From an uncultured Clostridium sp. (GTDB lineage Bacteria; Bacillota; Clostridia; TANB77; CAG-508): a stretch of 56,046 bases of DNA. Below the pieces are notes generated by a model. It was not told the DNA's origin. It did no database searches and saw only the letters and a list, made by a program, of their open reading frames with translations. The position numbers were made by a program, and so were the translations under genes. The stretch spans positions 1 to 56,046 of the forward strand of contig CANTHA010000001.1 in assembly GCA_947653375.1 (NCBI GenBank). The letters are read 5' to 3'. This document shows, in pieces, positions 2,590 through 52,940 of this stretch (the first letter of the stretch is position 1; each line of letters begins with the position of its first letter).

Positions 2590-5500
2590 ATGAATAAAAA
2601 TATAATGAGATTTATTGGGGTAATATTAATATTAATTATGTTTTTTTCTATAATTTTTCCGACAGTTAACTTCGCATATCAAGAAACAAAAGAAAACAAT
2701 AATATAAATAATAACATAAATAATGTAATAGATAAAAATGAAAATAAAGTAGAAGAAAATAATTCAATAAATAATAATATAAATAACGAACAAGTTAATA
2801 ATTCAATAGATAATAACACTAACAATACACAAGTTAATGTTAATACAAATACTGAAGAAGAAAAATCTAATAGTAAAGATAATATAGAACCTACAGATGA
2901 TAAGCAAATACAACAAGATAATAGTGTACAAGTTACAAGCATAGATGCTACAAGTGGAACTTCTAGTATTTTGGCAGAAGGTATATATGAGATTTATACA
3001 GCAACTAATCCAAATAAAGTTATAGAAGTTTATAACAGTTCATGTTCAAATTTTGCTAATATTCAATTATGGGATAATTTAGGATTACAAAGACAAAAAT
3101 TCGAAATTTCTTATGATGTGCAAAAATCCGCATACATTATAACTGCAGTTCATTCAGATAAAGTTTTTGATGTTTATGCAGGACAAAGAGTTAATTTTGC
3201 AAATATACAACAATATAGTTATAATGGCTCAATAGCACAACAATGGACAATTAAAGAAACAGGAGATGGATATTATAATATTATTTCAAAAGACAGTAAT
3301 AAATATTTAGATATATATGCAGGAAGCACAAATAATGGAGCAAATATACAGTTATATGAAGGAAATGGTTCAATAGCACAAAAATTTGGATTTAAAAAAA
3401 TTGATGAAGCTAAAGGAACTCAAACAATATCAGATGGTATTTATAATATAAAACCAAAAATAGACAATAATAAATCACTTCAAGTAGAAGGAAAATCAAC
3501 AGAAAATAATAAAAGAATTCAATTAGCAAATGCATCTATTAGTAAAAGTCAAAATTTTATTATTAAATATTTGAACAATGGTTACTATTCTTTAACTATT
3601 GAATTATCTAATAAATCATTAGATGTTCCAGGAGCAGAAGCTAGAAATGGAATTAATATTCAACAATATACTAGTAATAATACAACTGCACAGCAATGGA
3701 TAATAAAAGATGCAGGAGAAGGATATTATTATATAATTTCAAGATGTAATGGATTATATGTAGATATTCCTGCCGGAAATGCAAGTTTAGGTATAAATAT
3801 GCAATTATATACAGGAAATTCTTCTAATGCGCAAAAATTTAAATTTGAAGAAGTAGAAGAACTAAAAAGTGATAAATTAAATTCAGATGGTGTTTATTAT
3901 ATAACATCAGCATTATCTTCTAATAAAGTATTAACTGTTTCAAACGGTGAATATAATAATTTTTCTAATGTTAATTTATGGGATAAAAATGATAAAGAAT
4001 ATCAGAAATTTGAGTTAGTATATGATCAACAATTAAAAACATATACAATAACAGCTTTACACTCAAATAAGGCTTTAGATGTATATGGTGGAGGGCAAAC
4101 TAACGGAACAAATGTTGATCAATATCAAAGTAATAAATCAATTGCACAACAATGGATTTTAAAAGATGCAGGAAATGGCTATTACTATATAATTTCTAAA
4201 TGCAACTATTTATATTTAGATTTATATGCAGGTTCTACAGTAAATGGAACTAATATTCAGATGTACGAAAGCAATAATTCAAACGCTCAAAAATTCAAAT
4301 TTATTGAAGCTACAACAGAAAGAGGAACAAAGACAATTGAAAATGGAACATATAATATAGTTAGTAAAATAAATGATAATAAAGTTCTTCAAGTAGCAAA
4401 TCAATCTGTATTAAATGGTGAGAATATACAAGTTTACGATAAATTAAAAGTAATAAATCAAACACAAAGTTTTGAAATACAATATTTAGAAAATGGATAT
4501 TATTCAATCAAAGGGAAAAAATCAGGAAAAGCTTTAGAAGTTAAAAATGGATATTCTGTAAATGGAACAAAAATACAACAAAATAATTATGGAGATACAA
4601 CAATACAACAATGGATGATAAAGGATGCAGGAGATGGATACTATTATATAATTTCAAGATGCAATGGATTATATGTAGATATACCAGGTGGAAGTGTTTC
4701 TAATAATACAGAAATTCAAGTATATGAGGGAAATAATTCATTAGCACAAAAGTTTAAATTTGTAGAAGCAAAACAGGAATTAAATCGTGAAAGAACTTTA
4801 TCAGATGGAGTTTATAATATTTCTACTGCATTAGATAACAATAAAGTTTTAGATATTGCAGGAGGAGATTATTCAAATGGAGCTAATGTTCAAATATGGG
4901 ATAATTCTAAAGTACAGCAACAAAAATTTCAATTGAAATATAATGAATCTGGTAAGTATTATGAAATAAAATCAGCAAGTTCAGGAAAAGTATTAGATGT
5001 TTACAATAATGGAAAAACTGATTATTCAAATGTATGGCAATATCAAAGTAATGGTTCAGAAGCACAAAAATGGATACTTCAAGATGCAGGAAATGGCTAT
5101 TATTATATAGTAGCAATGAATTCAAACCTATATTTAGATGTTTTTGCTGGAAGAACAAGCAATGGAACCAATATTCAAGTTTTTGAAGGAAATGAAAGAA
5201 GTTCTCAAAAATTTAAATTTAATAAAGTTACAATGATAGATGATGATTCATATAGAATATCAATTAAGAAAAATCCTAATATGTTATTAGATATAAATGG
5301 AGGCTCAACATCAGAAAATGAGAATGTACAAATATGGTCAAATAGTAGTGTGAATCAACAAATATTTAAAATAGAAAATATAGACAAAACATATTGTAAG
5401 ATAGTAGCAAAACATTCTAATAAAGTTTTAACAGTACAAAATAATAACAATGTTGTACAAACTACATATTCAGGAAATGATAATCAAAAATGGAGTTTTG

Positions 5501-6300
5501 AGATTGTAGAAAATGGATATTATAAAATAAAATCTAAATCAACAGGATTATATTTAGATGTTTATGCAAATAGAACAGAAAATGGAACAAATGTAAGAGT
5601 TTATGAGGAAAATGAATCTGAAGCCCAATTGTTTAAACTAAATGATATAATTCAAAGACATGGAATAGATGTAAGTGAATTTAATGGTATTATTGATTGG
5701 GGAGAAGTAAAAAGATCAGGACAAGCTGATTTTGCTATTATAAGAGCAGGATATAGAGGATATGGTTCTGGAAGATTAGTAACAGATGCACAATTTGTTA
5801 AAAATGTAAGAGGAGCAGCAGAAAATGGAATAGATATAGGAATATATTTCTTTACACAAGCAGTAACTATTCAAGAAGCAGTTGAAGAAGCTAACTATGT
5901 ATTAAATTTAGTAAGAGCTTATGATGTAAAAGTAAAATATCCAATAGTAATTGATACAGAATACTCTGGTTCAACAACAAATGGAAAAAACGATAATTTA
6001 GGAAGAGCTGATAATTTAGATATAGGAAATAGGACAGCAGTATGTAAAGCTTTTTGTGATACAATAAGAAGTGCTGGATATACACCAGCTGTATATGCAA
6101 GTAGAAATTGGTTTTACGAGAGATTAAATGTAGCTGGATTAGGAGATTGTGATATATGGGTTGCACATTATACAGGAAGTGCTTCAAATACAACAAATTA
6201 CAGATATAGTTATAATATTTGGCAATACACAAGTTCAGGTTTAATTCCAGGAGTTAGAGCAAATGTAGATATGAATATATCATATAAAATTTATAAATAG
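2590..6300 (+). CDS. Secreted peptidoglycan hydrolase: signal peptide, Asn-rich linker, six ricin-type beta-trefoil lectin modules, C-terminal GH25 muramidase
   Basis: N-terminal hydrophobic signal. About 140-aa modules repeat the pattern LDVYAG..NGANIQ.Y..NGS.AQ(K/Q)(W/F). The C-terminus GIDVSEFNGIIDWGEVKRSGQADFAIIRAGYRG...IVIDTEYS matches the GH25 lysozyme pattern. Strong RBS aaaggag. Confidence 0.85.
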   Translation: MNKNIMRFIGVILILIMFFSIIFPTVNFAYQETKENNNINNNINNVIDKNENKVEENNSINNNINNEQVNNSIDNNTNNTQVNVNTNTEEEKSNSKDNIEPTDDKQIQQDNSVQVTSIDATSGTSSILAEGIYEIYTATNPNKVIEVYNSSCSNFANIQLWDNLGLQRQKFEISYDVQKSAYIITAVHSDKVFDVYAGQRVNFANIQQYSYNGSIAQQWTIKETGDGYYNIISKDSNKYLDIYAGSTNNGANIQLYEGNGSIAQKFGFKKIDEAKGTQTISDGIYNIKPKIDNNKSLQVEGKSTENNKRIQLANASISKSQNFIIKYLNNGYYSLTIELSNKSLDVPGAEARNGINIQQYTSNNTTAQQWIIKDAGEGYYYIISRCNGLYVDIPAGNASLGINMQLYTGNSSNAQKFKFEEVEELKSDKLNSDGVYYITSALSSNKVLTVSNGEYNNFSNVNLWDKNDKEYQKFELVYDQQLKTYTITALHSNKALDVYGGGQTNGTNVDQYQSNKSIAQQWILKDAGNGYYYIISKCNYLYLDLYAGSTVNGTNIQMYESNNSNAQKFKFIEATTERGTKTIENGTYNIVSKINDNKVLQVANQSVLNGENIQVYDKLKVINQTQSFEIQYLENGYYSIKGKKSGKALEVKNGYSVNGTKIQQNNYGDTTIQQWMIKDAGDGYYYIISRCNGLYVDIPGGSVSNNTEIQVYEGNNSLAQKFKFVEAKQELNRERTLSDGVYNISTALDNNKVLDIAGGDYSNGANVQIWDNSKVQQQKFQLKYNESGKYYEIKSASSGKVLDVYNNGKTDYSNVWQYQSNGSEAQKWILQDAGNGYYYIVAMNSNLYLDVFAGRTSNGTNIQVFEGNERSSQKFKFNKVTMIDDDSYRISIKKNPNMLLDINGGSTSENENVQIWSNSSVNQQIFKIENIDKTYCKIVAKHSNKVLTVQNNNNVVQTTYSGNDNQKWSFEIVENGYYKIKSKSTGLYLDVYANRTENGTNVRVYEENESEAQLFKLNDIIQRHGIDVSEFNGIIDWGEVKRSGQADFAIIRAGYRGYGSGRLVTDAQFVKNVRGAAENGIDIGIYFFTQAVTIQEAVEEANYVLNLVRAYDVKVKYPIVIDTEYSGSTTNGKNDNLGRADNLDIGNRTAVCKAFCDTIRSAGYTPAVYASRNWFYERLNVAGLGDCDIWVAHYTGSASNTTNYRYSYNIWQYTSSGLIPGVRANVDMNISYKIYK

Positions 6301-9984: not shown

Positions 9985-10018
9985 AAATATAAATATAAAA
10001 TAGAAAGATGTGATATAT

Positions 10019-13000
10019 ATGAAAGATATAATTAAAAAATTTAGCATTAAAAATATTATATGTTTCCTTTTAATATTTACAATATTTTTAAATATATTTT
10101 TGCCAACTCTATGTTTTGCTATAGAACAAAAAAATAATGAAAGTATAACTAATAATAATTTATCTAATAGTACAAATACAATTAACAATACTACAAGTAA
10201 TACTAATACTACTATAAATGATACTATAAATAATACTATAAGTAATTCCACAAGCAATACTAATACAAATCAAGTAGATAAAATTGAAGAAGATACTCAA
10301 GAAGAACAAAAAAAGGATGAATCAAAAGAAGAAAATAAGGACGAAAGTGTAGAGGAATTTGTTCAAGAAGAACTTGAAACACAAGTTAATATGCTAAAAG
10401 GTACTAATCAGATTAGTGACAAAATAGAAGATGGAATATATGAAATTGTATCTGCAAAAAATACAGGTAAATTATTAAGTATAGATAATAATTCAAATGC
10501 AGAAATATGGGAAAGAGTAAATGATAAAAGTCAAAAGTTTCAAATTACATATTCAAACGAAGGATATTACACAATAAAAATATTAAATACAGAAAAAGTG
10601 CTAGATGTATATGCAGGTTTATGTGATAGTGGAACAAATGTACAAGCATATCAAAGAAACAATTCAGATGCACAAAAATGGATAATAAAGAAAGAAACAA
10701 ATGGACAATATTCAATAATATCAAAATCAAGCGGATTATATTTAGATATATATGCAGGAGATACAACAAATGGGGCAAATGTACAGATATATGAAGGTAA
10801 TGGAAGTATTGCTCAGAGGTTTGTATTCAAAAAAGTAGAAGAGATAAAAAGTGAAAGAACAATAAAAGATGGAATATATGAAATTGCATCTGCAAAAGAT
10901 ATAAGTAAATTATTAAGTATAGATAATAACTCAAATGCTTTAATATGGCAAAAATCTAATAATAAAAGTCAAAAGTTTCAAGTTACATATTCAAATGAAG
11001 GATATTATACAATTAAGATATTAAATACAGAAAAAGTATTAGATATATATGCAGGTTTGCGTGATAATGGAACAAATGTACAAGCATATCAAGGAAACAA
11101 TTCAGATGCACAAAAATGGATAATAAAAAAAGAGGCAAATGGACAATATTCAATAATATCAAAATCAAGTGGATTGTATTTAGATATATATGCAGGAGAT
11201 ACAACAAATGGAGCAAATGTGCAGATATATGAAGGTAATGGAAGTATTGCTCAGAAATTTATATTTCAAGAGCCACAACAAATAAAAGGAGAAAAGACAA
11301 TACCAGATGGAATGTATAAAATTAAATCAGCAATCAACCAAAAAATGGTACTAGATATTTCAGGAGGAAGTAAAGCTGATTTTGCAAATGTACAAATATG
11401 GGAAGATAGTAATGTAAAGCAACAAAAATTTCATATAAAATATATAGGAAATGGATTTTATACAATAAGAGCAGTACATTCAAAAAAGTCTGTAGATGTA
11501 TATGCAGGTTCTCAAGAATTGGGTGCAAATGTAAACCAATATTCATATAATGGTGGAGATGCACAACAATGGATTATAAAAGATGCTGGAAGTGGATATT
11601 ATAATTTAATATCTAAATGTAATTATTTATATTTAGATATATATGCAGGAGCAACTTCAAATGGAACAAATGTGCAAATGTATGAAGGAAATGGAAGTAA
11701 TGCACAAAAATTTAAATTTGAGAAAACAGAGGCTCAAGCTATAGATAATGGTACATATGAAATAAGTATGGCTTCAAATAGTAATAAAATAATAGAAGTA
11801 AATGATAGTAGTAGGGAAGATTTTGCAAATGTACAAATATGGGATAGACTAAATAGAAATTGTCAAAAGTTTAATGTAATATATAATGAAAATACTAAAG
11901 AATATACAATAAAAGCTGTACATTCTAATAAAGCATTAGATGTATATGCAGGTTTAAATGAAAATGGAACAAATGTACAACAATATACAGCTAATAATTC
12001 AATTGCACAAAAATGGAATATAATAGATTTAGGTGATGGTACTTATAATATAGTTTCAAAATGTAATGGCCTATATTTGGACGTATATGGAGGCTCTACT
12101 AAAAATGGAGCAAATGTACAAGTGTACAAAGGAAATGGTTCTATTGCACAATTATTTAGATTTAATGAAACTACTATAACAGATGGAAATTGTTCGGATT
12201 TTGAATTTGTAAATGAAAATAGATATCCAGGATACAAAAATTTATTAAGGGATTTGCAAAACAAATATCCTAATTGGACAATAAGACTTGAATATACAGG
12301 TCTTGATTGGAACAGAGTAATAGAATCTGAAGATCAATTTAGTGGAGGAAGCCCAAAAAATTTAATACATGATTCATATGGAAATGAATGGATAAATGGA
12401 ACAACAAAGTATGATGTTACTAATAATTGGTATCGTGCTTCAAGAAAGGCAATAGCATATATGATGGATCCTCGTAATAGTCTAACAGAAAAGTGGATAT
12501 TCCAATTTCAAGATTTATCATCTTCTTCAGGAACAAGACAAGAAGTAGCAAAAATGACACAAGGAACATTTCTATGTAAAGATACAATAATTGATGAGAT
12601 TATGAGAACTTCACAAGAACAAAATATTAGTCCATTCCATTTAGTATCTAGAATAAAACAAGAACAAGGTGCTGATGGTAAAGGAATATTAAATGGTAAT
12701 TATGAATATTTACGGAAAAAAAGTTTATAATTTATTTAATATAAATGTTAGTGGAAATACATCAGCTGGAATATTAGCAGGAGCTAGATATGCTTATGAT
12801 AAAGGTTGGTTTACACAAGAAGCATCTATAAGAGGAGGAGCAGAATTTTTAAAAACTAAATATATAAGCAAAGGACAAACTACATTATATTATCAGAAAT
12901 ATAACGTAGTAAATCATGAAGAATTATTTGGACATCAATATATGCAAAATATTAGAGCAGCAAATGACGAAGGAAATATGATTTATAAAGCATATTATGA

Positions 13001-15168: not shown

Positions 15169-16053
15169 ATGAAAAATAGAAAAGGAATTATATTAGCAGG
15201 AGGAAGTGGAACAAGACTATATCCATTAACAATAGCAATATCAAAGCAAATAATGCCAGTGTATGATAAACCAATGATATATTATCCAATATCAGTTTTA
15301 ATGGAAGCAAATATAAAAGAAGTTTTAATCATATCAACACCAAGAGATATTGTAGTATTCAAAGAACTATTAGGAGATGGTTCACAATGGGGAATGCATT
15401 TTGAATACAAAATACAAGAAAAGCCAAATGGATTAGCAGAAGCATTTATAATAGGAGATGAATTTATAGGACAAGATAATGTTGCAATGATATTAGGTGA
15501 CAACATGTTTTATGGTTCTCATTTATCAGAAATATTAAAAAGAGCAAATGAAAGAGAAAACGAATCTACAATATTTGGTTATTATGTAAAAGATCCAAGA
15601 AGATATGGAGTAGTAGAAATAGACGAAAATGGAAAAGCAATATCAATAGAAGAAAAGCCAGAAGAACCAAAATCAAACTATGCGGTTCCTGGATTATATT
15701 TTTACACCAATGATGTAATAGAAATTGCTAAAAATACAAAGCCATCAGCAAGAGGAGAACTAGAAATAACATCTGTTAATGATGAATACATGAAAAGAGG
15801 AAAATTAACAGTTGAAAAATTAGGGAATGGAATGGCATGGTTTGATACAGGAACACATGATGCATTAATAGAAACAGCAAGTTTTGTACAAACAATAGAA
15901 AAAAGACAAGGAATTCAAGTATCATGTCCAGAAGAAATTGCTTACAAAAAAGGATGGATAACAGCAGAAGAATTATCAAAAATAGCAGATAAATACATGA
16001 AAACAGAATATGGACAATACTTAAAAGATTTAGCAACTAATAAAATAGTGTGA
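15169..16053 (+). CDS. rfbA: Glucose-1-phosphate thymidylyltransferase
   Basis: [31 protein letters not shown]...LGDN.FYG are canonical RmlA motifs. Confidence 0.95.
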
Positions 16054-16306
16054 CAAAGGGGTCGGGTTTATTTGTCACATTAATAATAAAAAAATATAAG
16101 TTTATATATAAAATATTAAAATTAAATTCATTGCTGGTCAGGTTAATCGTATAAATAATTTAGCACATTTCATAATTAGAAAATTTAGTCTATCTAACCT
16201 ATATGAATATTACCTTTCCAAACTGTGCGTCATTTATTTTAATATTTTATAGATAAACTAAATTAATTATCAAACTGTGACAAATAAGGGCGACCCCTTT
16301 GTCACA
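16049..16306 (+). mobile_element. MITE-like insertion between rfbA and rfbC: 31-nt GC-containing hairpin ends (28/31 inverted identity) around a divergent copy of the repeat-family core (16131-16231)
   Basis: tgtgacaaaggggtcgggtttatttgtcaca (16049-16079) against tgtgacaaataagggcgacccctttgtcaca (16276-16306). The internal sequence ttgctggtcaggttaatcgtataaa...acctttccaaactgtgcgtc matches the core of the other copies. Confidence 0.6.
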
Positions 16307-21187: not shown

Positions 21188-22048
21188 CATATCATTAGGT
21201 ATTTGTGAAAGGAAATTTAGGTGTTTTTTATTTATAGGATGTATAAAAGAAACTCTATAGCTATGTAGAGCTTGTCTAGATATTAAATTAGATTTATTGC
21301 CATATAGAGTATCACCTAAAAGAGGATGACCAATTGATGCAAAATGTACTCTTATTTGATGAGTTCTGCCAGTTTCGAGAATACAATTAATTAAAGAATA
21401 ATCATCAAATTCTTGTAAAACTTTATAATGTGTTATAGAATACTGACCATTTGCATCAATACATCTTTCAATAATGCTATTAGGCTTTCTAGCAATAGGT
21501 AAATTAATACTTCCTGATTTACTTTCTAAAATTCCACTCGCAATACAAATATATTCTTTTTTAAAAATTTTATTTTGCATTTGCTTACTTAATTTTTCTT
21601 GTATATATTCACATTTAGCAAATATAACAAGACCAGATGTATTTAGATCTAATCTAGTAACTGGTCTTATTTTTTTATTTAAACCGATCTTATCAAAATA
21701 AAATTTAACTCCATTTGATAAGGAATCTGTATAATGTAAATTTGAAGGGTGAATTGGAATACCAAAAGGTTTGTCTAATATTAACATCCATTCATCTTCA
21801 TAAATTATAGAAAGATTCATTTCAATAGGAACAATATTAGTACTTTCTTCTTTTATATTAAAATCTATAGTAATTACATCATTTAAAATAATATTTTTTC
21901 TAGTATCACAAACAATATTATTCAATGAGATTTTTTTGTTTTTTATTAATTTAGTAATTAACCTATTTGATAGTTGAAATTCATTAATTAATATTTCGTT
22001 AATTGTATTATATTTAGTATTTTTATCAACAATGTATTGTAAAATCAT
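21173..22048 (-). CDS. RluA-family (RluD-like) pseudouridine synthase
   Basis: S4-like N-terminus, then PFGIPIHP...RLDLNTSGLVIFAK...ETGRTHQIRVHFA..GHPLLGD. Confidence 0.85.
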   Translation of the reverse strand: MILQYIVDKNTKYNTINEILINEFQLSNRLITKLIKNKKISLNNIVCDTRKNIILNDVITIDFNIKEESTNIVPIEMNLSIIYEDEWMLILDKPFGIPIHPSNLHYTDSLSNGVKFYFDKIGLNKKIRPVTRLDLNTSGLVIFAKCEYIQEKLSKQMQNKIFKKEYICIASGILESKSGSINLPIARKPNSIIERCIDANGQYSITHYKVLQEFDDYSLINCILETGRTHQIRVHFASIGHPLLGDTLYGNKSNLISRQALHSYRVSFIHPINKKHLNFLSQIPNDMLNLL

Positions 22049-22160
22049 AATTTCCTCTTTTTTATATTTTTTTGTATTATAAATAAATTAGATTTATATG
22101 TCAAATACAAGATAATATTTATTATGTTCAAGTTTCGTTTTTTAAAATTATTAGTTACAC

Positions 22161-22324
22161 AAAAGTTATAATATATATTAAAATAGTATAATTTACTTGT
22201 CAGACTAATCATATAAATAAGTTTAATAAATTTCAAATATAGAGAAGTTAATCTGGCTTATCTGTAATAATAAATGTCTTCCCAAACTGCGCATTATTCT
22301 ATTTTACTATATATTATAACTTTT
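22161..22324 (+). repeat. Repeat-family copy A (palindrome-capped element)
   Basis: 29-nt AT-only terminal inverted repeats (22161-22189 and 22296-22324, 27/29 complementary) around the core ...gtcagactaatcatataaataag...tgtcttcccaaactgcgcat. Confidence 0.8.
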
Positions 22325-22438
22325 AAATTAAAATAAAAAAGTCAAAACTTAAACATAGTTTACTATTGATTTATTATTAATTAATATATATAATAGCAAT
22401 GGTTTAATATAAAAAGATAAATCAGTGGAGGTAACATA

Positions 22439-23101
22439 TTGAGAATAAGATATAAAAAATGGGCACGACCAGAACTAGAAGCAAGTGAATTTTATGAAGA
22501 TAATCCAGAAGACTGGAAAGGAAAATGGAAAAAACATTTCAAAAATCAAAACAATCCTCTACATTTAGAACTAGGTTGTGGAAAAGGACAATTCATTTCA
22601 AATTTAGCAGTAAAAAATAAAAATATAAATTATCTAGCGATTGATTTAGTTGATGCAATGTTAGGTCTAGCAAAAAGAAATATAGAATCAGTTTATAGTG
22701 AAAACAGTGAAGAAATAGATAATGTATTAATAACTAGATTTGATATAGAGAGAATTAATTTGATATTAAATAAATTAGATGAAGTAGAAAGAATTTATAT
22801 TAATTTTTGCAATCCATGGCCAAAAGGAAAGCATAGAAAAAAGAGATTAACACATAGTAAGCAATTAGAAAAATATAAAGAATTCTTAAAACCAGAATCT
22901 AAAATCTATTTTAAAACAGATGATGATGATTTATTTAATAGTAGTTTAAATTATTTTGAAGAAAGCGAATTTGAAATAATAGAAAAAACATATGACCTAC
23001 ATAAAGACACAATATTTAAAGAAAATATAGAAACAGAACATGAAAAAATGTTTTCAGAAGAAGGAATAAAAATAAAAGCACTAATTGCAAAACTAAAATA
23101 G
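22439..23101 (+). CDS. trmB: tRNA (guanine46-N7)-methyltransferase
   Basis: LELGCGKGQF...NYLAID...INFCNPWPK.KH.KRRL. TTG start with GGAGG 8 nt upstream. Confidence 0.9.
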   Translation: MRIRYKKWARPELEASEFYEDNPEDWKGKWKKHFKNQNNPLHLELGCGKGQFISNLAVKNKNINYLAIDLVDAMLGLAKRNIESVYSENSEEIDNVLITRFDIERINLILNKLDEVERIYINFCNPWPKGKHRKKRLTHSKQLEKYKEFLKPESKIYFKTDDDDLFNSSLNYFEESEFEIIEKTYDLHKDTIFKENIETEHEKMFSEEGIKIKALIAKLK

Positions 23102-24660: not shown

Positions 24661-25857
24661 ATGAAAGTTTTAGTTTTAAATTCAGGAAGTTCTTCATTAA
24701 AATATCAAGTAATTGATATGGAAAAAGAAGAAATGTTAGTTAAAGGATATTTTGAGAGAATCGGTCAGTCAAATTCTTTTTTAACCCATAAAGTTAATGG
24801 AGAGACACATAAATTTGAACATTATGCAAAAGACCATAAACAAGCTATAAAATTTGTATTATCAAGAATTATGAATAAGTATTATGGAGTTATTAAAGAT
24901 TTAGATGAATTAATAGGTATAGGACATAGAGTTGTACATGGAGGAGAAAAATTTTCTAAATCTGTTATTATAAATGATGAGGTTATTGAAGAAATAAAAA
25001 AATGTAGTGATTTAGCACCACTTCATAATCCAGCAGCAATTTTAGGGATTGAAGCATGTAAAAAAGTAGCTCCAAGTGTAAAAATGATAGCTGTCTTTGA
25101 TACAGCATTTCATCAAACAATATCACAAGAAAAATATATTTATCCAATACCATATGAATATTATGAAAAATATAAAATAAGAAAATATGGATTTCATGGA
25201 ACATCACATCAGTATGTTTCTAACAGAGTAGCTCAATTAATGAATAAGGATATAAAAGATTTAAAAATTGTAAGCTGTCATTTAGGTCAAGGAGCAAGTA
25301 TATGTGCAATAAAAGATGGTAAATCAGTTGAAAATAGTATGGGATTAACACCACTTGGAGGAATTTGTATGGGAACAAGAAGTGGAGATTTAGACCCATC
25401 AATTATTTCATATATTATGAAAAAAGAAAATTTGACATCAGATGAAATAGAAAATATATTAAATAAAAAATCAGGAGCATATGGGGTTTCAGGTATATCA
25501 GTGGATTTTAGAGATATTGAAGCAGAAATGAGAGCAGGAGATAAAAGAGCAAAATTGGCATTAGATGTGTTTCATGAAACAGTTGCATCATATATTGCAA
25601 AATGTGGAGTTGCTATGAATGGTATTGATGTTATAACTTTTGAAGCTGGTGTGGGTGAAAAAGGTCAAGATTCTAGGCAGGAAATTTGTGATAAATTAGA
25701 GTTTTTAGGTGTAAAACTGGATAAACAAAAAAACCAAGATACAAAAGATTTTGAAGCAGAGATTTCTTCAAAAGGTTCTAAAGTAAAAGTGTATGTTGTT
25801 CCAACAAATGAAGAGTTGATGATTGCAAAGGAAACAAAAAGATTATTGTCAATTTAA
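24661..25857 (+). CDS. ackA: Acetate kinase, paralog 1 (divergent C-terminal FTGG.GEN motif)
   Basis: MKVLVLNSGSSSLKYQ...HRVVHGG...FDTAFHQT...YGFHGTSH...MGTRSGDLDP. ITFEAGVGEKG replaces the usual FTGGxGEN. Confidence 0.88.
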   Translation: MKVLVLNSGSSSLKYQVIDMEKEEMLVKGYFERIGQSNSFLTHKVNGETHKFEHYAKDHKQAIKFVLSRIMNKYYGVIKDLDELIGIGHRVVHGGEKFSKSVIINDEVIEEIKKCSDLAPLHNPAAILGIEACKKVAPSVKMIAVFDTAFHQTISQEKYIYPIPYEYYEKYKIRKYGFHGTSHQYVSNRVAQLMNKDIKDLKIVSCHLGQGASICAIKDGKSVENSMGLTPLGGICMGTRSGDLDPSIISYIMKKENLTSDEIENILNKKSGAYGVSGISVDFRDIEAEMRAGDKRAKLALDVFHETVASYIAKCGVAMNGIDVITFEAGVGEKGQDSRQEICDKLEFLGVKLDKQKNQDTKDFEAEISSKGSKVKVYVVPTNEELMIAKETKRLLSI

Positions 25858-25879
25858 AAGTTAAAATATAGTTTAATTT

Positions 25880-26037
25880 AAAAGTTATAATATATGAAAA
25901 TATACTATTTGCTGGTCAGACTAATCATATAAGGAAGGTTGATAAATTTCAAATATGGAAAATTTAATCTAGCTTATCTATATTAACAAGTGTCTTCCCA
26001 AACTGTGCATAGTATATTTTACTATAATTATAATTTT
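25880..26037 (+). repeat. Repeat-family copy B
   Basis: aaaagttataatatatgaaaatatactat ... core ... atagtatattttactataattataatttt. Confidence 0.8.
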
Positions 26038-26053
26038 AAGATATAGTTAATTT

Positions 26054-26211
26054 AAAAGTTATAATATATTAAAATATACTATTTGCTGGTCAGACTAATC
26101 ATATAAATAAAATTGATAAATTTCAAATATAGAAGATTTAATCTAGCTTATCTATATTAAAAAGTGTCTTCCCAAACTGTGCATAGTATATTTTACTATA
26201 TTACAACTTTT
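26054..26211 (+). repeat. Repeat-family copy C (in tandem with B)
   Basis: aaaagttataatatattaaaatatactat ... core ... atagtatattttactatattacaactttt. The flank atatagtt(t)aattt is also duplicated. Confidence 0.8.
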
Positions 26212-26301
26212 AAATAAGATAAATATTATTAACTATTGACTAATGTACAATATAAATATTATACTTATAATATAAAAAAATAAAAAGAAAGGAAATTAGA
26301 A

Positions 26302-27492
26302 ATGAAAGTATTAGTATTAAATTGTGGTAGTTCATCATTAAAATATCAATTAATAAATATGCAGACAGAAGAGGTTCTAGCATCAGGAAAGTATGAGAGA
26401 ATTGGAGAAAAGGAAGCGTTTATAACACATAAAGTAAATGGCCAAAAAATTGAAATACAAAACCCAGCATATAATCACACAGAAGCAATTGAATTTACAT
26501 TAGAACAATTAGTAAACCCACAATATAAAGTTGTAGATAGTTTAGAAGAAATAGAAGCTATTGGGCATAGATTGGTGCATGGAGGTGAAAAAATTTCAGA
26601 ATCTGTAATTATAAATGATGAAGTTGTAAAAGTGTTAAAGGAATGTACAGATTTAGCACCTTTACACAATCCAGCTTCTATTCTAGGAATAGAGGCATGT
26701 CAAAAGATAATGCCAGGGAAGACAATGGTAGGTGTATTTGATACAGCATTTCATCAAACAATTCCAGAAGAAAAATATATTTACCCAATACCATATGAGT
26801 ATTATAAAAAGTATAAAGTAAGAAAATATGGTTTTCATGGAACATCTCATATGTATGTATCTAAAAGATTGGCAGAAATAGAAAATAAAAATATAGAAGA
26901 TTTAAAAATTGTTACTTGTCATTTAGGTCAAGGTTCTAGTATTTGTGCAGTAGATGGTGGCAAATCAATAGATACTAGTATGGGTCTTTCACCACTTGGA
27001 GGGATTCCAATGGTAACAAGAAGTGGAGATATGGATCCATCTGTTTTGACATATATTATGAAAAAAGATAATTTATCAGCAGATGAGATGGAATCAATAT
27101 TAAATAAACAATCAGGTGTATCTGGAATTTCAGGATTAGCACCAGATTTTAGAATAATTGAAGAGGCAGCAAATAATGGTGATGAAAGAGCAAAAATTGC
27201 AATGGATAGTTTTAAATATGCTATTGCAAGTTATATTGCAAAATATGCTGTAGCAATGAACGGTATTGATTATATTGTGTTTACAGGTGGAGTTGGAGAA
27301 AACCAGATTAAAATTAGAGAAGGAATTTGTAAACAATTAGAATTTATGGGAGTAGAGATAGATGAAGATTTGAATAATGTTAGAAGTGAGGAAAAATTAG
27401 TTTCTAAATCTGGCTCAAAAGTAAAAATTTATATTGTTCCAACAAATGAAGAATTAATGATTGCTAAAGAAACTCAAAGACTTACAAAATAA
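26302..27492 (+). CDS. ackA: Acetate kinase, paralog 2 (canonical motifs)
   Basis: MKVLVLNCGSSSLKYQ...HRLVHGG...FDTAFHQT...YGFHGTSH...IVFTGGVGEN. Confidence 0.9.
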   Translation: MKVLVLNCGSSSLKYQLINMQTEEVLASGKYERIGEKEAFITHKVNGQKIEIQNPAYNHTEAIEFTLEQLVNPQYKVVDSLEEIEAIGHRLVHGGEKISESVIINDEVVKVLKECTDLAPLHNPASILGIEACQKIMPGKTMVGVFDTAFHQTIPEEKYIYPIPYEYYKKYKVRKYGFHGTSHMYVSKRLAEIENKNIEDLKIVTCHLGQGSSICAVDGGKSIDTSMGLSPLGGIPMVTRSGDMDPSVLTYIMKKDNLSADEMESILNKQSGVSGISGLAPDFRIIEEAANNGDERAKIAMDSFKYAIASYIAKYAVAMNGIDYIVFTGGVGENQIKIREGICKQLEFMGVEIDEDLNNVRSEEKLVSKSGSKVKIYIVPTNEELMIAKETQRLTK

Positions 27493-28092: not shown

Positions 28093-28142
28093 TTCTTTTA
28101 ATTCATCTGGTAATGCTACATGAACATTATAGTCTTTTCCTT

Positions 28143-28367
28143 CTATTTCGTTTTCAAAACAGGATTTTCAAGTGCTTGTGCAATTGAAGTATATCCTTTA
28201 ATTGAATACCAATCAGTTACAGAATAATTGTCGTCAGAACTTGTCAATTTACAAAGTAATTGTAAATGCCGAGCTTCTTTTATATGACCCAATAATGTAA
28301 TCATGTAGAAAATAAAGAAAAGTGTAATCCCCCCGAAAAACATTCCCTTAATCATTCCTTTTTTCAT
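28143..28367 (-). CDS. Small membrane-anchored hypothetical protein
   Basis: 74 aa with one N-terminal TM helix (FFGGITLFFIFYMITLL). RBS aaaaggaggatacaat precedes the ATG on the minus strand. Confidence 0.5.
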   Translation of the reverse strand: MKKGMIKGMFFGGITLFFIFYMITLLGHIKEARHLQLLCKLTSSDDNYSVTDWYSIKGYTSIAQALENPVLKTK

Positions 28368-28514
28368 ATTGTATCCTCCTTTTTGTTAAATGATTAAATT
28401 AGTTTTACATTAGTTTGTATTGCAAACTAATTGCTGTTACTTAAATAGCATAGAAAAATTATATCACAATTGACATAATATGTAAATACTAAAGTAGAAA
28501 AAAATAAAAAACAC

Positions 28515-28542
28515 TTGAAATCTAAAAAATATATGATATAAT
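28515..28542 (+). promoter_or_regulatory. Sigma-A-type promoter for the ileS leader
   Basis: TTGAAA (28515-28520), 16-nt spacer, TGaTATAAT extended -10 (28534-28542). Confidence 0.6.
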
Positions 28543-28589
28543 ACTAACTAATATATGAATAAAAACTAAAATAAGGACAATATGAATAA

Positions 28590-28868
28590 TATAATATCTT
28601 AAAGAGAGCCAAAGGGTGCTGTGAATTTGGTAAGTAAAAATTATTTTGGCTAAAAGCCATGAGTTATTTGTAATTATAAAAACAACTAACTTAATTATCA
28701 CCTTATTGTCGCTATTCCGAAAAAAAGTAAGTCTAGCCGTAAGTCTGCGTTAAAGATATATTTAAGAGAGTAAATTATATTTGATATATAAATTTGCTAA
28801 TTTAGGTGGTACCGCGGAAGTATAGACTTTTCGTCCTAATGTAATTTTAGGATGAAAAGTTTTTTTGA
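28590..28868 (+). promoter_or_regulatory. T-box leader (tRNA-Ile sensing) with terminator
   Basis: AGAGAG and GGTGCTGTGAA stem-I motifs are at ~28603-28633. The candidate specifier is AUC at 28707-28709, followed by A. The T-box sequence aatttaGGTGGTACCGCGg is at 28797-28817. The terminator is cttttcgtcctaa...ttaggatgaaaag+T7 (28826-28867). Confidence 0.88.
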
Positions 28869-28961
28869 TTAAGATATTCAATTTGATTTTTATGAAAATA
28901 AATATTTTTATATAGATGATAAAAATCAAAAAATATATATCAAAGAAAGGGAGGAATAAAA

Positions 28962-34385: not shown

Positions 34386-34548
34386 TATTATAGAAAGTTC
34401 TCCGAACTTTGTATAATATAAAGCATTCCACAGAAAATTGCATAGCAATTTTCGCGGACGAACAATACGAGGTAAAGTTATAATATATCGCTTTTTTATT
34501 ATTTTTGTGATAATATAAATATAATAAAAATGGAAAGAAGGAATTGAT

Positions 34549-35767: not shown

Positions 35768-35901
35768 GTGTGTGCAGGAAACTATAATAAAAAGTTATAA
35801 CTTTTTAATTTAAATAAAGATAAAAAAATAGAAAGTTAATATGGATAAAAACTTGAATTTTTATAAAAATTAATATATGATAGCAAAAGTAGAGGTGGAA
35901 T

Positions 35902-38691: not shown

Positions 38692-40101
38692 TTAAACATT
38701 ATTTGCGATATCGGAAGCATATCCGATATATTTATCTGGGCTAAGGTTCAGCAGAGTTTCTCTGTCTTCATCAGACAAAACATCTAATGAGAGAATAAAC
38801 TCATGGATAATCTCCTTAGTTATAGATTTGCCTCTTGTAAGATCTTTTAAGCGATCATAGGCATCTGGTATACCATATTTTCTAAGCATTGTTTGGATAG
38901 GTTCAGCAAGAATTTCCCAGCTTTGTTCGAGATCTTTAGAGATAACTTCTACATTTACGTCACATCTTTTCAGACCTCGCAGTGTATTTGAAATGGCTAA
39001 AAGTGAATAACCAATAGCCATACCAATATTACGTTGAGCAGAAGAATCTGATAAATCTCTTTGCATTCTTGAACGAGGAAGCTTGTTTGATAATGATTGT
39101 AACAATGCATTTGAAATCTCAACATTTGCTTCACTGTTTTCAAACCAGATTGGGTTGACTTTGTGTGGCATAACTGATGAACCAACTTCTCCTTTTACAG
39201 GAATTTGCTTAATATAATCCTTTGAGATATACAGCCACATATCAACATTCAAGTCCATAAGAATATTGTTGAAGTGCCGTAAAGCATCAAGAATTTCTAC
39301 AACATAATCATGAGGCTCAATTTGTGTTGTTATTGGATTAAAATGTAATCCTAAACAATCAGTTACAAATTTCTTGCAAAGTTCAGGCCAATTTTCATTT
39401 GGAAATGCTGTACTAATTGCACTGTAGCAACCGGTTGCACCATTAAATTTGCCCTTTATTTGTATTTTTGAAAGAGCATCAGATACATTCTCAAGTCGAG
39501 AAACGTAAACAGCAAATTCCTTTCCAACTGTAACCGGAGTTGCATGTTGACCATGAGTATGTCCAAGCATTGGTATATTCTTGAACTTTTCAGTTAACTG
39601 CCGAAGATATTCAATAAGCTCATTTGTTGCAGGAAGCCATATATCAGCCAATGATTCAGCTAACATAAGAGCATATGCAGTGTTATTAATATCTTCAGAA
39701 GTACAACCGATGTGAACGAAAGAAACTAAATATTCTAGTCCTTGTTCCTTAAGTTTTTGCGCAATAAAATGCTCCACAGCTTTCACATCATGCTTTGTTT
39801 TGCTTTCAATTTTTTTCACAGAAATTGCATCATCAAGAGAAAAGCTGTAGTAAATACTCCAGATTTTTGCAAGATCTTCGTTTGTGAACCCATTAGCGTC
39901 TAATGCAGGAATATCAATGTGGCAAATGATGAAATCAAGCCAAGATATTTCTACATAAACACGATACCGGATTAACGCATACTCTGAGAAATATTCATTT
40001 AATTTCTCTCCAGTGCTGTCATACCGCCCATCAAGAGGTGAAAGGCCAAGTAAGGCCATTTTTTGTGATACCTCTTCTCCAAATAACTTATTTTTTTTCA
40101 T
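38692..40101 (-). CDS. purB: Adenylosuccinate lyase (E. coli-type long form)
   Basis: LSPLDGRY......L...FSEYALIRYRV.VE..W, HIGCTSEDINN and GSSVMPHKVNP signatures. RBS gaaaggaga. Confidence 0.9.
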   Translation of the reverse strand: MKKNKLFGEEVSQKMALLGLSPLDGRYDSTGEKLNEYFSEYALIRYRVYVEISWLDFIICHIDIPALDANGFTNEDLAKIWSIYYSFSLDDAISVKKIESKTKHDVKAVEHFIAQKLKEQGLEYLVSFVHIGCTSEDINNTAYALMLAESLADIWLPATNELIEYLRQLTEKFKNIPMLGHTHGQHATPVTVGKEFAVYVSRLENVSDALSKIQIKGKFNGATGCYSAISTAFPNENWPELCKKFVTDCLGLHFNPITTQIEPHDYVVEILDALRHFNNILMDLNVDMWLYISKDYIKQIPVKGEVGSSVMPHKVNPIWFENSEANVEISNALLQSLSNKLPRSRMQRDLSDSSAQRNIGMAIGYSLLAISNTLRGLKRCDVNVEVISKDLEQSWEILAEPIQTMLRKYGIPDAYDRLKDLTRGKSITKEIIHEFILSLDVLSDEDRETLLNLSPDKYIGYASDIANNV

Positions 40102-45854: not shown

Positions 45855-45974
45855 AAAAATACCTCCGTTTTTTATTAAAATTATATGTCACAAAAGAATA
45901 AAAAGAACTATATAAAAGCCGAAACTTAAAAATGTAAATTCAAGTTTCAATTTTTAAAAATGATTAGTTTATAC

Positions 45975-46008
45975 AAAAGTTATAATATATATTAAAATAG
46001 TATAATTT
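45975..46008 (+). repeat. Solo left cap of the repeat family
   Basis: 34 nt identical to 22161-22194 (aaaagttataatatatattaaaatagtataattt). No core follows. Confidence 0.75.
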
Positions 46009-46086
46009 TAATATATGTAAACAATTGACAAGATAATATGATTAATATATACTAAAAAAGATTTAATAAATGATGTGGGAGATTAT

Positions 46087-47154: not shown

Positions 47155-47190
47155 TAAAAATATAATTAATATAAGAAAGTAAGGTAAAAA

Positions 47191-48753: not shown

Positions 48754-48768
48754 TAAAAGGAGAGAATT

Positions 48769-49884: not shown

Positions 49885-49903
49885 TAGATAGTAAGAGGAA
49901 AAA

Positions 49904-50776: not shown

Positions 50777-50785
50777 AGGGAAGAT

Positions 50786-51346
50786 ATGAAAGAATTAAAT
50801 ATATTTGATTTTGATGATACTATTTATAAAGGTGATAGTTCCATTGATTTTTATTTATTTTGTTTAAAAGAGAATGTAACTTTATTAAGATATTTACCAA
50901 TTCAATTATATGGGATGCTTATGTATAAATTAAAATTAAAATCTAAAGAATTTATGAAAGAAAAATATTTTTCATTTTTAAAAGGAATAAAAAATACTGA
51001 TTATAAAGTAGAAAAATTTTGGAATAAAAATGAAAATAAAATAAGAAATATTTTAATAAAAGATAAAAATAATATAGTTGTTATTTCTGCATCTCCAGAG
51101 TTTTTGTTAAAAGAAATTTGTAAAAAAAATGGAATTGATACTGTAATAGCCACATTAGTGGATAAGAAAAGTGGAAAATTTTTAAGTAAAAATTGTTATG
51201 GAGAAGAAAAAGTAAATAGATTAAATAATGAGTACAAAGATTATTATATAAATGAATTTTATTCTGATTCTAAATCAGATAAATATTTAGCTAAGATTTC
51301 TAAAAAAAGTTTTTTAGTTAAAGGAGATAAAATAGAAAAGTGGTAA
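50786..51346 (+). CDS. HAD-IB family phosphatase
   Basis: IFDFDDTIYKGDS (DxDxT motif I), VISASPEF (motif II) and a C-terminal ..YSDS.SD. Confidence 0.7.
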   Translation: MKELNIFDFDDTIYKGDSSIDFYLFCLKENVTLLRYLPIQLYGMLMYKLKLKSKEFMKEKYFSFLKGIKNTDYKVEKFWNKNENKIRNILIKDKNNIVVISASPEFLLKEICKKNGIDTVIATLVDKKSGKFLSKNCYGEEKVNRLNNEYKDYYINEFYSDSKSDKYLAKISKKSFLVKGDKIEKW

Positions 51347-51430
51347 GTTAAAAAATGCTATAAATATCAAAATTAGTTATAATTAAGTAATTATAAAATT
51401 AATTCTTAATAATAACTAATTTTGTTATTT

Positions 51431-52682: not shown

Positions 52683-52778
52683 TATAAATATTAAAATTAG
52701 TAAATTAGAAGATGAAGTTTGGAATATGCCAAGCTTTATTTTTTACTATAATTATAAATTTAAAAGTATAATTAATTT

Positions 52779-52940
52779 AAAAGTTATAATCTTTATTAAA
52801 AACACAATTTGCTGGTCAGACTAATCATATAAACAAGTTTAAGGATTTTCAAGATATTGAAAAGTTAATCTGTATTATATGTAATAATAAATGTCTTCCC
52901 AAACTGCGCATTAGTGTTTTTACTATATATTATAACTTTT
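52779..52940 (+). repeat. Repeat-family copy D, preceded by a solo right-cap-like segment (52741-52767)
   Basis: aaaagttataatc...tttgctggtcagactaatcatataaac...tgtcttcccaaactgcgcat...tttttactatatattataactttt. Confidence 0.8.

What the first reader, a model, noticed from the sequence alone, without database searches (positions are those of the whole stretch)
22161..22324. Strand-biased family of ~160-bp palindrome-capped intergenic elements with a conserved, covarying core
**Seen directly.**
- Full copies lie at 22161-22324, 25880-26037, 26054-26211 and 52779-52940. A divergent core lies at 16131-16231.
- Solo caps lie at 45975-46008 (34 nt identical to the left cap of the 22161 copy), at 52741-52767 and possibly at 34484-34498.
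- Each unit has AT-only ~29-nt terminal inverted repeats (aaaagttataatatat...). These are 27/29 complementary in this copy.
- The caps enclose a ~100-nt core with near-invariant blocks TTGCTGGTCAGACTAATCATATAA and TGTCTTCCCAAACTG[C/T]GCAT.
- The middle of the core varies but always keeps a TTTC-loop-GAAA hairpin.
- The divergent copy changes AGAC...GTCT to AGGT...ACCT. That is two compensatory substitutions preserving the helix that closes the core.
- All copies share one orientation, the same as nearly all genes here.

**Inference.** This is either a non-autonomous mobile element or a multi-copy structured small RNA. The hairpin ends and orientation bias recall IS200/IS605-derived palindrome-associated elements. 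I cannot match the core to any riboswitch or sRNA class I know, and there is no transposase in the window.
Basis: partly seen in the sequence, partly recalled or inferred. Interest (0 to 1): 0.7.

Follow-up and report, generated by a model that had tools for sequence, protein, structure and literature searches.

The report
Mobile long-hairpin intergenic repeat, conserved core
The window carries a previously undescribed family of short non-coding palindromic repeats that come and go between genes in a few uncultured gut and rumen Clostridia, most likely a selfish miniature mobile element rather than a host regulatory RNA.

Summary
A covariance model finds exactly five cores in the window, all on the + strand (E 1e-24 to 1e-28). 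There are also four truncated pieces.

Each unit is one long imperfect hairpin of about 160-260 bp, closed by 30-75 bp inverted arms around a 95-99-nt core. No Rfam family matches, and nothing matches in the plasmid, phage or literature searches.

Relatives occur in four other Clostridia lineages. Between lineages the core is 70-84% identical. The arms are only 42-66% identical, yet each left arm still pairs best with its own right arm.

Three orthologous sites are filled in one lineage and empty in close relatives. At one of them a short AGATATA-GG sequence is duplicated at the junctions.

Among orthologous copies of one insertion the arms stay 92-100% identical, while the core drifts at about the rate of its flanks (77-87%).

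Best reading: a new MITE-like, foldback-type non-autonomous element whose core serves the element itself. The link to IS200/IS605 is not supported. Core covariation rests on one 4-bp helix. The orientation bias is 9:1 and not absolute. The mobilising enzyme, the transcripts and the genome-wide copy number are unknown.

The parts
16049..16306 (+). Divergent full unit, a 258-bp hairpin. Outer 31-nt inverted repeat at 16049-16079 / 16276-16306. Inner arms at 16099-16125 / 16233-16259. Core at about 16134-16228. The rmlA stop codon (16051-16053) lies inside the outer arm, and rmlC starts 22 nt downstream.
   Evidence: (114 bits)
22139..22340 (+). Full copy of the main subfamily. The hairpin spans 22161-22324 with 27/29 complementary caps, and the core is at about 22196-22292. 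About 20 nt on the left are shared with the other copies. It lies between a divergent rluA-family gene and trmB.
   Evidence: z = -5.0; 124 bits
25840..25876 (+). Truncated left-end piece that overlaps the last codons and the stop codon of ackA copy 1.
   Evidence: 2/200 shuffles reach the score
25880..26037 (+). Full copy, first of a tandem pair. Core at about 25912-26008.
   Evidence: 133 bits
26054..26211 (+). Full copy, second of the tandem pair. Core at about 26086-26182. It lies 91 nt upstream of ackA copy 2.
   Evidence: 129 bits
35789..35818 (+). Internally deleted remnant. It consists of the 18-bp palindrome AAAAAGTTATAACTTTTT plus the right-end flank. It is absent from the orthologous spoVS-SBP spacer of relative L078.
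   Evidence: 22/24 identity to the right end of the 22161 copy; 2/200 shuffles
45951..46008 (+). Solo left arm with its left extension. The core and right arm are missing. It lies at the left edge of a 5.5-kb gene block that relatives lack.
   Evidence: D15; 0/200 shuffles
52737..52775 (+). Solo right arm plus the same linker as between the tandem pair. It is the remnant of a copy that stood in tandem before the 52779 copy.
   Evidence: 0/200 shuffles
52779..52940 (+). Full copy between rpmE and miaB. Core at about 52812-52909. It occupies the place of an ordinary rpmE terminator hairpin seen in relatives.
   Evidence: (122 bits)

Best explanation
This is a new family of miniature, non-coding, foldback-type mobile elements (MITE-like).

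**Anatomy (shown).** Each unit is a long imperfect palindrome. Two inverted arms of 30-75 bp close a 95-99-nt core of conserved sequence and fixed length.

**Behaviour (shown).** Units are inserted in intergenic spacers, sometimes in tandem. They supply or replace gene-end sequences and decay by internal deletion between the arms.

**Mechanism (inferred).**
- An enzyme encoded elsewhere in the genome probably moves the element. It has not been identified.
- That enzyme is proposed to recognise the arms, the core-proximal stem, or both.
- The core is kept because only copies with an intact core propagate. After insertion the host does not need it.
- When transcribed with neighbouring genes, the unit would fold into a long RNA hairpin. 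That hairpin could act as a terminator-like or RNase III-sensitive structure. This would be a side effect, not the element's purpose.
For: **Repetition**
- Five cores and four fragments lie at six independent intergenic sites in 56 kb.

**Presence/absence at orthologous sites**
- rpmE-miaB: 333 bp with the element in the window and in L064. Relatives L065 and L078 have 102-121 bp with an ordinary terminator.
- Rubredoxin-FDP: filled in L006, empty in L068-L071 and L082/83.
- Upstream of the Asp23-like gene: filled in L068, L079, L080, L082 and L083, empty in L085 and L086.

**Target duplication**
- At the L006 site, AGATATA(N)GG occurs once in the empty spacer and at both junctions in the filled one.

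**Patchy distribution**
- Five Clostridia lineages carry the family.
- About 80 kb of distinct sequence (about 100 kb fetched) from the window's closest relatives has no copy.
- Short-read contigs L003, L081 and L084 break at the element.

**Selfish signature**
- Among orthologous copies the core is 77-87% identical and the flanks 55-90%. The arms are 92-100%.
- Across lineages the pattern reverses: cores are 70-84% identical and arms 42-66%.

**Arms stay complementary**
- Each left arm pairs best with its own right arm or one from its own subfamily, at -24 to -44 kcal/mol. Unrelated arms give about -5 to -14.
- Orthologs show a compensatory change from GTACATG/CATGTAC to GTCCATG/CATGGAC.

**No coding capacity, no known RNA family**
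- Small ORFs read by eye are not conserved.
- Rfam searches gave no real match.
Against: - No transposase or autonomous partner was found in the window or in any fetched locus (and the gene tables).
- Flanking direct repeats cannot be told from chance in this AT-rich DNA: 29-268 of 300 shuffles match them. Target duplication therefore rests on one filled/empty comparison.
- Across lineages the core is better conserved than the arms. That is unusual for a MITE, whose terminal repeats are normally the conserved part.
- A 9:1 orientation bias towards the G-rich strand is not expected from a simple cut-and-paste enzyme.
- Genome-wide copy number is unknown, because only one contig of the source genome is at hand.
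Confidence: 0.6

Rival explanations
1. It is a family of structured small RNA genes, or cis-acting RNA modules. The conserved 97-nt core is the functional RNA, the variable arms are merely its closing stem, and the gene has duplicated and been transferred horizontally.
For: - Core sequence and length are conserved across lineages while the closing stem is replaced but stays paired. This is typical of RNA genes.
- The AGAC/GUCU helix has compensatory changes in two lineages, and 90% of cells are paired. Only 3/500 shuffles reach the covariation score.
- A pyrimidine-rich, anti-Shine-Dalgarno-like CUUCCC/CCUCCC block is conserved.
- The L001 copy ends in a U6 tract like an intrinsic terminator.
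- Eight of nine lineage/site combinations are co-oriented with the neighbouring genes.
Against: - Among orthologous copies the core drifts at about the flank rate, while the arms are conserved.
- Downstream genes are unrelated: trmB, ackA, miaB, rmlC, recG, rubredoxin and FDP.
- Close relatives do without it at three orthologous sites.
- No promoter is conserved on the + strand.
- The two strands fold about equally well, and the minus strand is often better.
- G·U versus A·C mismatches do not single out a strand.
- One clade carries it antisense to its neighbours.
- Covariation comes from only one 4-bp helix, and the tool's own caveat applies to related sequences.
Confidence: 0.2
2. It is a palindrome-associated element of the IS200/IS605 or REP/RAYT type. 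It would move as single-stranded DNA by a Y1 HUH transposase that recognises the folded hairpin, which would explain the strand bias relative to replication.
For: - Nine of ten independent sites have the same strand on the G-rich (leading, coding) strand.
- Conserved mismatched positions, the UC/UC internal loop next to UGG/CCA and AGAC/GUCU, could be a structure-specific recognition site.
- The arms are kept complementary rather than kept in sequence across lineages.
Against: - The two ends are inverted repeats of one another and form one giant hairpin. IS200/IS605 elements have separate left-end and right-end hairpins.
- The unit is far larger than a REP and has no conserved GTAG head.
- A target sequence appears duplicated at the one site with an empty allele. 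IS200/IS605 elements make no duplication.
- No tnpA(Y1), RAYT or tnpB gene was seen in the gene tables and family scans of the window and fetched loci.
- The L068-clade copy is on the other strand.
Confidence: 0.1
3. It is not mobile at all. The copies would be ordinary terminators or palindromes that look alike because of low-complexity AT-rich sequence, or that spread only by local duplication and recombination.
For: - In L001, and at rpmE-miaB, the unit sits where a terminator is expected.
- Tandem and truncated copies show that local duplication and deletion occur.
Against: - Cores are 95-99 nt and 70-93% identical at unlinked sites and in different organisms, at E about 1e-20 to 1e-28.
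- The consensus terminator scan finds none in the two regions scanned, 22000-22500 and 25700-26400.
- Insertions sit at non-homologous sites in different lineages.
Confidence: 0.05

Closest known systems
Correia elements (CREE/NEMIS) of Neisseria
   Same: - A non-coding unit of about 100-160 bp with terminal inverted repeats.
- Many intergenic copies.
- Co-transcribed into hairpin RNAs.
- Can supply promoters or terminators.
- Presence/absence differs between strains.

The properties of the family are from my own knowledge, not tested here.
   Different: - No sequence similarity.
- The arms here are much longer (30-75 bp) and differ between lineages.
- The core, not the terminal repeat, is the part conserved across lineages.
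- The TA target duplication and IHF site of Correia elements are not seen.
ERIC / YPAL imperfect palindromes of enterobacteria
   Same: - An imperfect palindrome of about 127 bp found only in transcribed intergenic regions.
- Sequence conserved across genera.
- Copy number varies widely by species.
- Mobilising enzyme unknown.

From my own knowledge.
   Different: - A different phylum and no sequence similarity.
- Here the arms are replaced between lineages, whereas ERIC is conserved along its whole length.
bcr1 repeats of the Bacillus cereus group
   Same: - A Firmicutes MITE-like repeat of about 155 bp.
- Transcribed and predicted to fold stably.
- Variable presence at orthologous sites.

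From my own knowledge. PMC6199540 surfaced but was not read.
   Different: - bcr1 has short (about 12-bp) terminal repeats and a TTTAT target.
- The present family is a foldback with very long arms and an unrelated core.
IS200/IS605-derived palindrome-associated elements (PATEs) and REP/BIME
   Same: - Small and non-coding.
- Dependent on a hairpin.
- Strand-biased.
   Different: - The ends pair with each other instead of forming separate left and right hairpins.
- Size and sequence differ from REP.
- An apparent target duplication is present.
- No Y1 or RAYT gene was found.

Membership tests
Bacterial MITE (miniature inverted-repeat transposable element) | Small (under about 500 bp) and without coding capacity | tested here: met
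   - Units are 160-260 bp.
- The only small ORFs are not conserved between copies (read by eye).
Bacterial MITE (miniature inverted-repeat transposable element) | Terminal inverted repeats | tested here: met
   - 27/29 complementary caps in the 22161 copy.
- 27- and 31-nt inverted pairs in the 16131 unit.
- Own-arm duplexes of -24 to -44 kcal/mol.
Bacterial MITE (miniature inverted-repeat transposable element) | Multiple dispersed copies in one genome | tested here: met
   - Five cores and four fragments at six sites in 56 kb.
- The rest of the genome is not available.
Bacterial MITE (miniature inverted-repeat transposable element) | Filled and empty alleles at orthologous sites | tested here: met
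   Three sites: rpmE-miaB, rubredoxin-FDP and upstream of the Asp23-like gene.
Bacterial MITE (miniature inverted-repeat transposable element) | Target-site duplication of fixed length | tested here: inconclusive
   - AGATATA(N)GG is duplicated at the L006 insertion relative to the empty L068/L082 spacer.
- Flank repeats at the other copies are no better than shuffles.
Bacterial MITE (miniature inverted-repeat transposable element) | A related autonomous IS with the same ends, encoding the transposase | not testable with these tools
   - None in the window or in any fetched locus.
- The arm sequences occur only in the elements themselves.
IS200/IS605-derived PATE | Distinct subterminal hairpins at the left and right ends, with no terminal inverted repeats | tested here: not met
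   The two ends are reverse complements of each other and fold into a single hairpin.
IS200/IS605-derived PATE | No target duplication; insertion 3' of a fixed tetra- or pentanucleotide | tested here: inconclusive
   - One site shows a duplicated AGATATA(N)GG.
- Left flanks share an A(A/G)ATATAG-like sequence, but this may be part of the element.
IS200/IS605-derived PATE | TnpA(Y1)/TnpB copy with matching ends in the same genome | not testable with these tools
   None in 56 kb. The whole genome is not available.
REP/BIME (REPIN) | 20-40-nt imperfect palindromes with a conserved 5' GTAG head, associated with a RAYT gene | tested here: not met
   - The units are 160-260 bp with a 97-nt non-palindromic core.
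- There is no conserved GTAG.
- No RAYT gene was seen.
Any Rfam 15 RNA family | Score at or above the family's gathering threshold | tested here: not met
   - 0 hits over the whole window.
- E-value mode on three different copies gives only noise: a snoRNA and plant miRNA hairpins, at E of about 0.06 or higher and far below gathering scores.
Intrinsic (Rho-independent) terminator | G+C-rich stem followed directly by a U tract | tested here: not met
   - The consensus scan finds none in the two regions scanned, which cover the 22161, 25880 and 26054 copies.
- Only the L001 copy has a GC-containing stem base followed by U6.

The most novel reading that the evidence does not exclude
The 97-nt core is a structured RNA or single-stranded-DNA module that the element needs for its own propagation. 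It could be the recognition scaffold, or a guide-like RNA, for an unidentified recombinase.

This would explain three things:
- The core keeps its sequence and length across distant Clostridia while the arms are replaced.
- The core decays neutrally once a copy is fixed.
- The copies are strand-biased.

If so, it would be a new kind of non-autonomous element defined by an internal structured core rather than by its termini.
Probability: 0.15. Interest if true: 0.7.

Novelty: new member of a known kind. Interest (0 to 1): 0.4.

Why it matters
- **Annotation.** It adds an unannotated repeat family to abundant but uncultured gut and rumen Clostridia. No such intergenic repeat turned up for these organisms in the searches made here.
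- **Assembly.** It explains contig breaks in their metagenome assemblies.
- **Gene ends.** It shows insertions that remodel gene ends: the rmlA stop codon, the ackA 3' end and the rpmE terminator.
- **Strain typing.** The filled and empty sites can serve as strain markers.
- **An open puzzle.** Across lineages the core is conserved and the arms are not. Within orthologs it is the other way round. This is a tractable problem about what a non-autonomous element must keep in order to move, and it could lead to the enzyme that moves it.

Tried and rejected
**Known-family and similarity searches**
- Rfam at gathering threshold on the window, and in E-value mode on three copies: nothing real.
- blastn of the core against plasmids and phages: no match.
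- Literature search by sequence and by keywords: nothing specific.

**Collection scans**
- The two-block pattern found only two MAGs in 185,579 species genomes, none in JGI metagenomes and none in viral contigs.
- The relaxed 5'-block pattern gave 60 loci, of which only L006 is real.

**Analyses that did not settle a question**
- Strand assignment by folding energy and by G·U versus A·C mismatches: no consistent answer.
- Flanking direct repeats as target duplications: not separable from chance.
- RNAalifold on MAFFT alignments recovers only UGG/CCA and AGAC/GUCU. The inner helices have ambiguous registers.

**Ideas considered and dropped**
- A conserved minus-strand promoter (TTGAAA-N17/18-TATGAT) is seen in the window copies scanned and by eye in L001 and L002. 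It is degraded in L006, L068 and c16131, so it does not explain the conservation.
- Small ORFs on either strand are not conserved.
- 51340-51435 as a right-end remnant that would make the 5.5-kb block a cargo: not significant, 105/200 shuffles.
- 34473-34488 as a solo cap: probably chance.
- Resemblances recalled from memory were checked by eye against the sequences and dropped. These were the Y RNA Ro-binding helix, Firmicutes dif, Bacillus Ter sites, MOBQ nic sites, integron attC and CodY/PerR boxes.

Full report
**1. Is it there?**

Yes. The four full copies and the divergent core read as described, and repeat finding groups them (families D3, D7, D8, D15). I built a covariance model from eight cores: UGG/CCA, AGAC/GUCU, UCAUAUA/URUAUGA and UUUC/GAAA, 121 positions. 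It scores the five window copies at 114-133 bits (E 1e-24 to 1e-28). With all filters off it finds no sixth copy; the next hit is 17 bits at E 0.2.

Local alignment against the full copies, with shuffle controls, gave the following:
- It confirms a solo left arm at 45951-46008 and a solo right arm with linker at 52737-52775. No shuffle out of 200 reached either score.
Two of 200 shuffles reached each.
- It makes the supposed cap at 34473-34488 doubtful (12/200).

The window is 25% G+C with positive GC skew throughout. It has no tRNA genes and no Rfam hit at gathering threshold.

**2. Anatomy**

Every unit is one long imperfect hairpin. The 22161 copy folds at -33 kcal/mol against -17.6 ± 3.1 for shuffles, z = -5.0.

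- In the main subfamily the arms are about 30 bp. A further 20 nt or so on the left is shared between copies.
- The divergent copy has different inner arms (16099-16125 / 16233-16259, 93% complementary). It is nested in a further 31-nt inverted pair (16049-16079 / 16276-16306, 90%). The whole is a 258-bp hairpin, and the rmlA stop codon lies in the outer arm.
- The core is 95-99 nt in all copies from all sources.

All sites are intergenic, and the flanking genes are unrelated:
- rmlA | rmlC
- an rluA-family gene | trmB
- ackA | ackA
- spoVS | a solute-binding protein gene
- a PBP5-type carboxypeptidase gene | an acyltransferase gene
- rpmE | miaB

**3. Not a known RNA or a known replicon sequence**

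- Rfam in E-value mode on three different copies gives only noise. The hits are a snoRNA and plant miRNA precursor hairpins, far below gathering scores.
- blastn of the core finds nothing in 72,556 plasmids or 50,697 phages.
- Full-text searches for the sequence and for Clostridial MITEs found nothing relevant.

**4. Where else it occurs**

- A two-block DNA pattern found only two loci in one genome per 185,579 species: L001 (a Clostridia MAG from roe-deer omasum) and L002 (an uncultured Clostridium MAG). It found none in JGI metagenomes or viral contigs.
- A relaxed pattern added one true hit among 60, L006.
- Walking from neighbouring proteins added L064, which is the window's species with 99% MiaB identity. 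It also added an orthologous series in L068, L079, L080, L082 and L083.
- About 80 kb of distinct sequence (about 100 kb fetched) from the window's nearest relatives has no copy. These share 80-82% MiaB identity, keep the same gene order and include a very abundant gut clade.
- The family is therefore patchy: present in distant lineages and absent from close relatives.

**5. Filled and empty sites**

(a) *rpmE-miaB.* The spacer is 333 bp in the window and L064. In L065 and L078 it is 102-121 bp. There an ordinary terminator hairpin is followed by the same miaB promoter region that lies just right of the element in the window.

(b) *Rubredoxin-FDP.* L006 has about 257 bp that L068-L071 and L082/83 lack. 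These relatives share 93% FDP identity with L006. The extra DNA is itself an extended imperfect hairpin with ends TTACCACTCA...TGAGTAATAA. The sequence AGATATA(N)GG occurs once in the empty spacer and at both junctions in L006.

(c) *Upstream of an Asp23-like gene.* The site is filled in five contigs whose Asp23-like proteins are 94-95% identical to the L068 protein or are that protein (L068, L079, L080, L082, L083). It is empty in relatives at 89% and 81%, where the upstream gene abuts.

(d) *The remnant at 35789-35818.* It is absent from the orthologous spacer in L078.

Three short-read contigs start at or inside the element, as expected of a repeat.

**6. Target duplication is only weakly shown**

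Apart from case (b), the best 9-mers shared by left and right flanks are matched by 49-268 of 300 shuffles. By eye the tandem pair reads AAAATATAG [E1] AAGATATAG [E2] AAGATAAAT. That fits re-use of one target, but in DNA this AT-rich it is not proof.

**7. What is conserved, and when**

- *Between lineages:* cores are 70-84% identical. Arms are 42-66%, roughly what unrelated AT-rich DNA gives. Yet each left arm pairs far better with its own or its subfamily's right arm (-24 to -44 kcal/mol) than with foreign ones (about -5 to -14). There are four independent arm sequences.
- *Between L006 and L068:* GTAGCCTG.../...CAGGCTAC has become GTACATG.../...CATGTAC.
- *Between the orthologs L068 and L079:* GTACATG/CATGTAC has become GTCCATG/CATGGAC.
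- *Among the orthologous copies of insertion (c):* arms are 92-100% identical, the core only 77-87% and the flanks 55-90%.

So a fixed copy keeps its stem and lets its core drift. Copies that have spread to new genomes all have a good core. That is the pattern expected if the core matters for propagation of the element and not for the host.

**8. Core structure and strand**

- On 12 sequences, 90% of cells in the four modelled helices are standard pairs. Five cells show changes on both sides, and only 3-4 of 500 shuffles reach the observed values.
- All compensatory changes lie in the AGAC/GUCU helix. They are AGGU/ACCU in the 16131 copy, and GGAC/GUCC in L079 and L082/83, reached through an A·C intermediate still seen in L002 and L068 (L006 carries the same AGAC...GUCC).
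- With nine sequences the signal was not significant: 85/500.
- The tool warns that related sequences can exceed shuffles without any structure.
- The inner helices have alternative registers, and RNAalifold does not recover them.
- The two strands fold about equally well, the minus strand often better.
- Wobble versus A·C mismatches do not single out a strand. The strand that matters, RNA or DNA, is therefore undetermined.

**9. Orientation**

Six independent window sites, plus L001, L002 and L006, have the same strand on the G-rich, coding-rich strand. The L068-clade insertion is on the other strand, although that locus has the same skew. A ratio of 9:1 is suggestive (two-sided binomial, about 0.02). 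It is a small sample and the bias is not absolute.

**10. Interpretation**

The best-supported reading is a new non-autonomous mobile element of the MITE/foldback kind (confidence 0.6).
- *Shown:* repetition, inverted arms, absence of coding capacity, filled and empty alleles, truncation and tandem copies, patchy distribution, and remodelling of gene ends.
- *Inferred:* mobilisation in trans by an unidentified enzyme, a cis role of the core in propagation, and RNA-hairpin side effects on neighbouring transcripts. One such effect is terminator-like: the L001 copy follows ndk by 15 nt and ends in U6.

Rivals:
- An sRNA or cis-RNA gene family (0.2).
- A single-strand-DNA, Y1-type element (0.1).
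- Non-mobile look-alike terminators (0.05).

**11. Comparison with known families**

It works like Correia, ERIC and bcr1 elements: small palindromic intergenic repeats that are transcribed into hairpins. It shares no sequence with them.

It differs in having very long arms that are replaced between lineages, and a core that is the cross-lineage constant.

It fails two defining features of IS200/IS605 PATEs and of REPs. The ends pair with each other, and neither a GTAG head nor a Y1 gene is seen.

I file it as a new member of a known kind. The unusual core/arm conservation pattern is the part worth following up.

Noticed in passing
window 24661-25857 and 26302-27492: Two tandem acetate/propionate kinase (ackA) paralogs, about 77% identical in DNA. 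They are separated only by the truncated left end and the two tandem element copies. The 3' end and stop codon of the first ackA overlap element-derived sequence.
   Followed up: partly
window 2590-6300 and 10010-12730: Two very large ORFs (1236 and 906 aa) are built from nine diverged copies (60-73% identical to the reference copy) of a module of about 450 bp (150 aa) that contains IWD/LWD motifs. They may be repeat-domain surface or lectin-like proteins (families D1, D2, D4, D6).
   Followed up: no
window 45855-51430: A 5.5-kb block lies between the PBP5-type carboxypeptidase gene and the VanW gene. It holds two Acyl_transf_3 genes, an unknown 520-aa gene, a UbiA prenyltransferase gene and a HAD hydrolase gene. 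Relatives L065 and L078 have the two flanking genes adjacent. The solo left arm of the element lies at the left edge of the block. A matching right-end remnant at the right edge was tested and is not significant.
   Followed up: partly
window 38692-40101 (- strand): An adenylosuccinate lyase gene sits between recA and recX. In relatives L065-L067 and L078, recA and recX are adjacent. L077 has a different 200-aa minus-strand gene there.
   Followed up: no
window 28093-28961: An 870-bp gap without an ORF of at least 100 aa lies upstream of the isoleucyl-tRNA synthetase gene, yet no T-box or any other Rfam family is detected. The whole 56 kb has no Rfam hit at gathering threshold and no tRNA gene.
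   Followed up: no
window 34390-34472: A locally G+C-richer segment lies in the rny-ymdB spacer (gaaagttctccgaactttg...cgcggacgaacaatacgagg). It has no counterpart in the shorter spacer of relative L078. Its nature is unknown.
   Followed up: no
window 16049-16079 and 16276-16306: Each outer arm of the divergent unit is itself a small hairpin, GTGACAAA-13 nt-TTTGTCAC, with a G+C-rich loop. This motif occurs nowhere else in the window. It may be the true terminus of this subfamily, or a second small palindromic element into which the core unit inserted.
   Followed up: partly
L003 (start), L081 1-52, L084 1-30: Short-read (Logan) contigs begin right next to or inside the element. This suggests that the repeat or its long palindrome breaks assemblies of these organisms.
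   Followed up: partly
L079 9572-9990: The DNA inserted upstream of the Asp23-like gene in the L068/L079 clade is about 395 bp, longer than the 250-bp element. It also holds short AAAATTGTAAAA / AAATTGTGAAAATTGTAGAG repeats of unknown origin.
   Followed up: no
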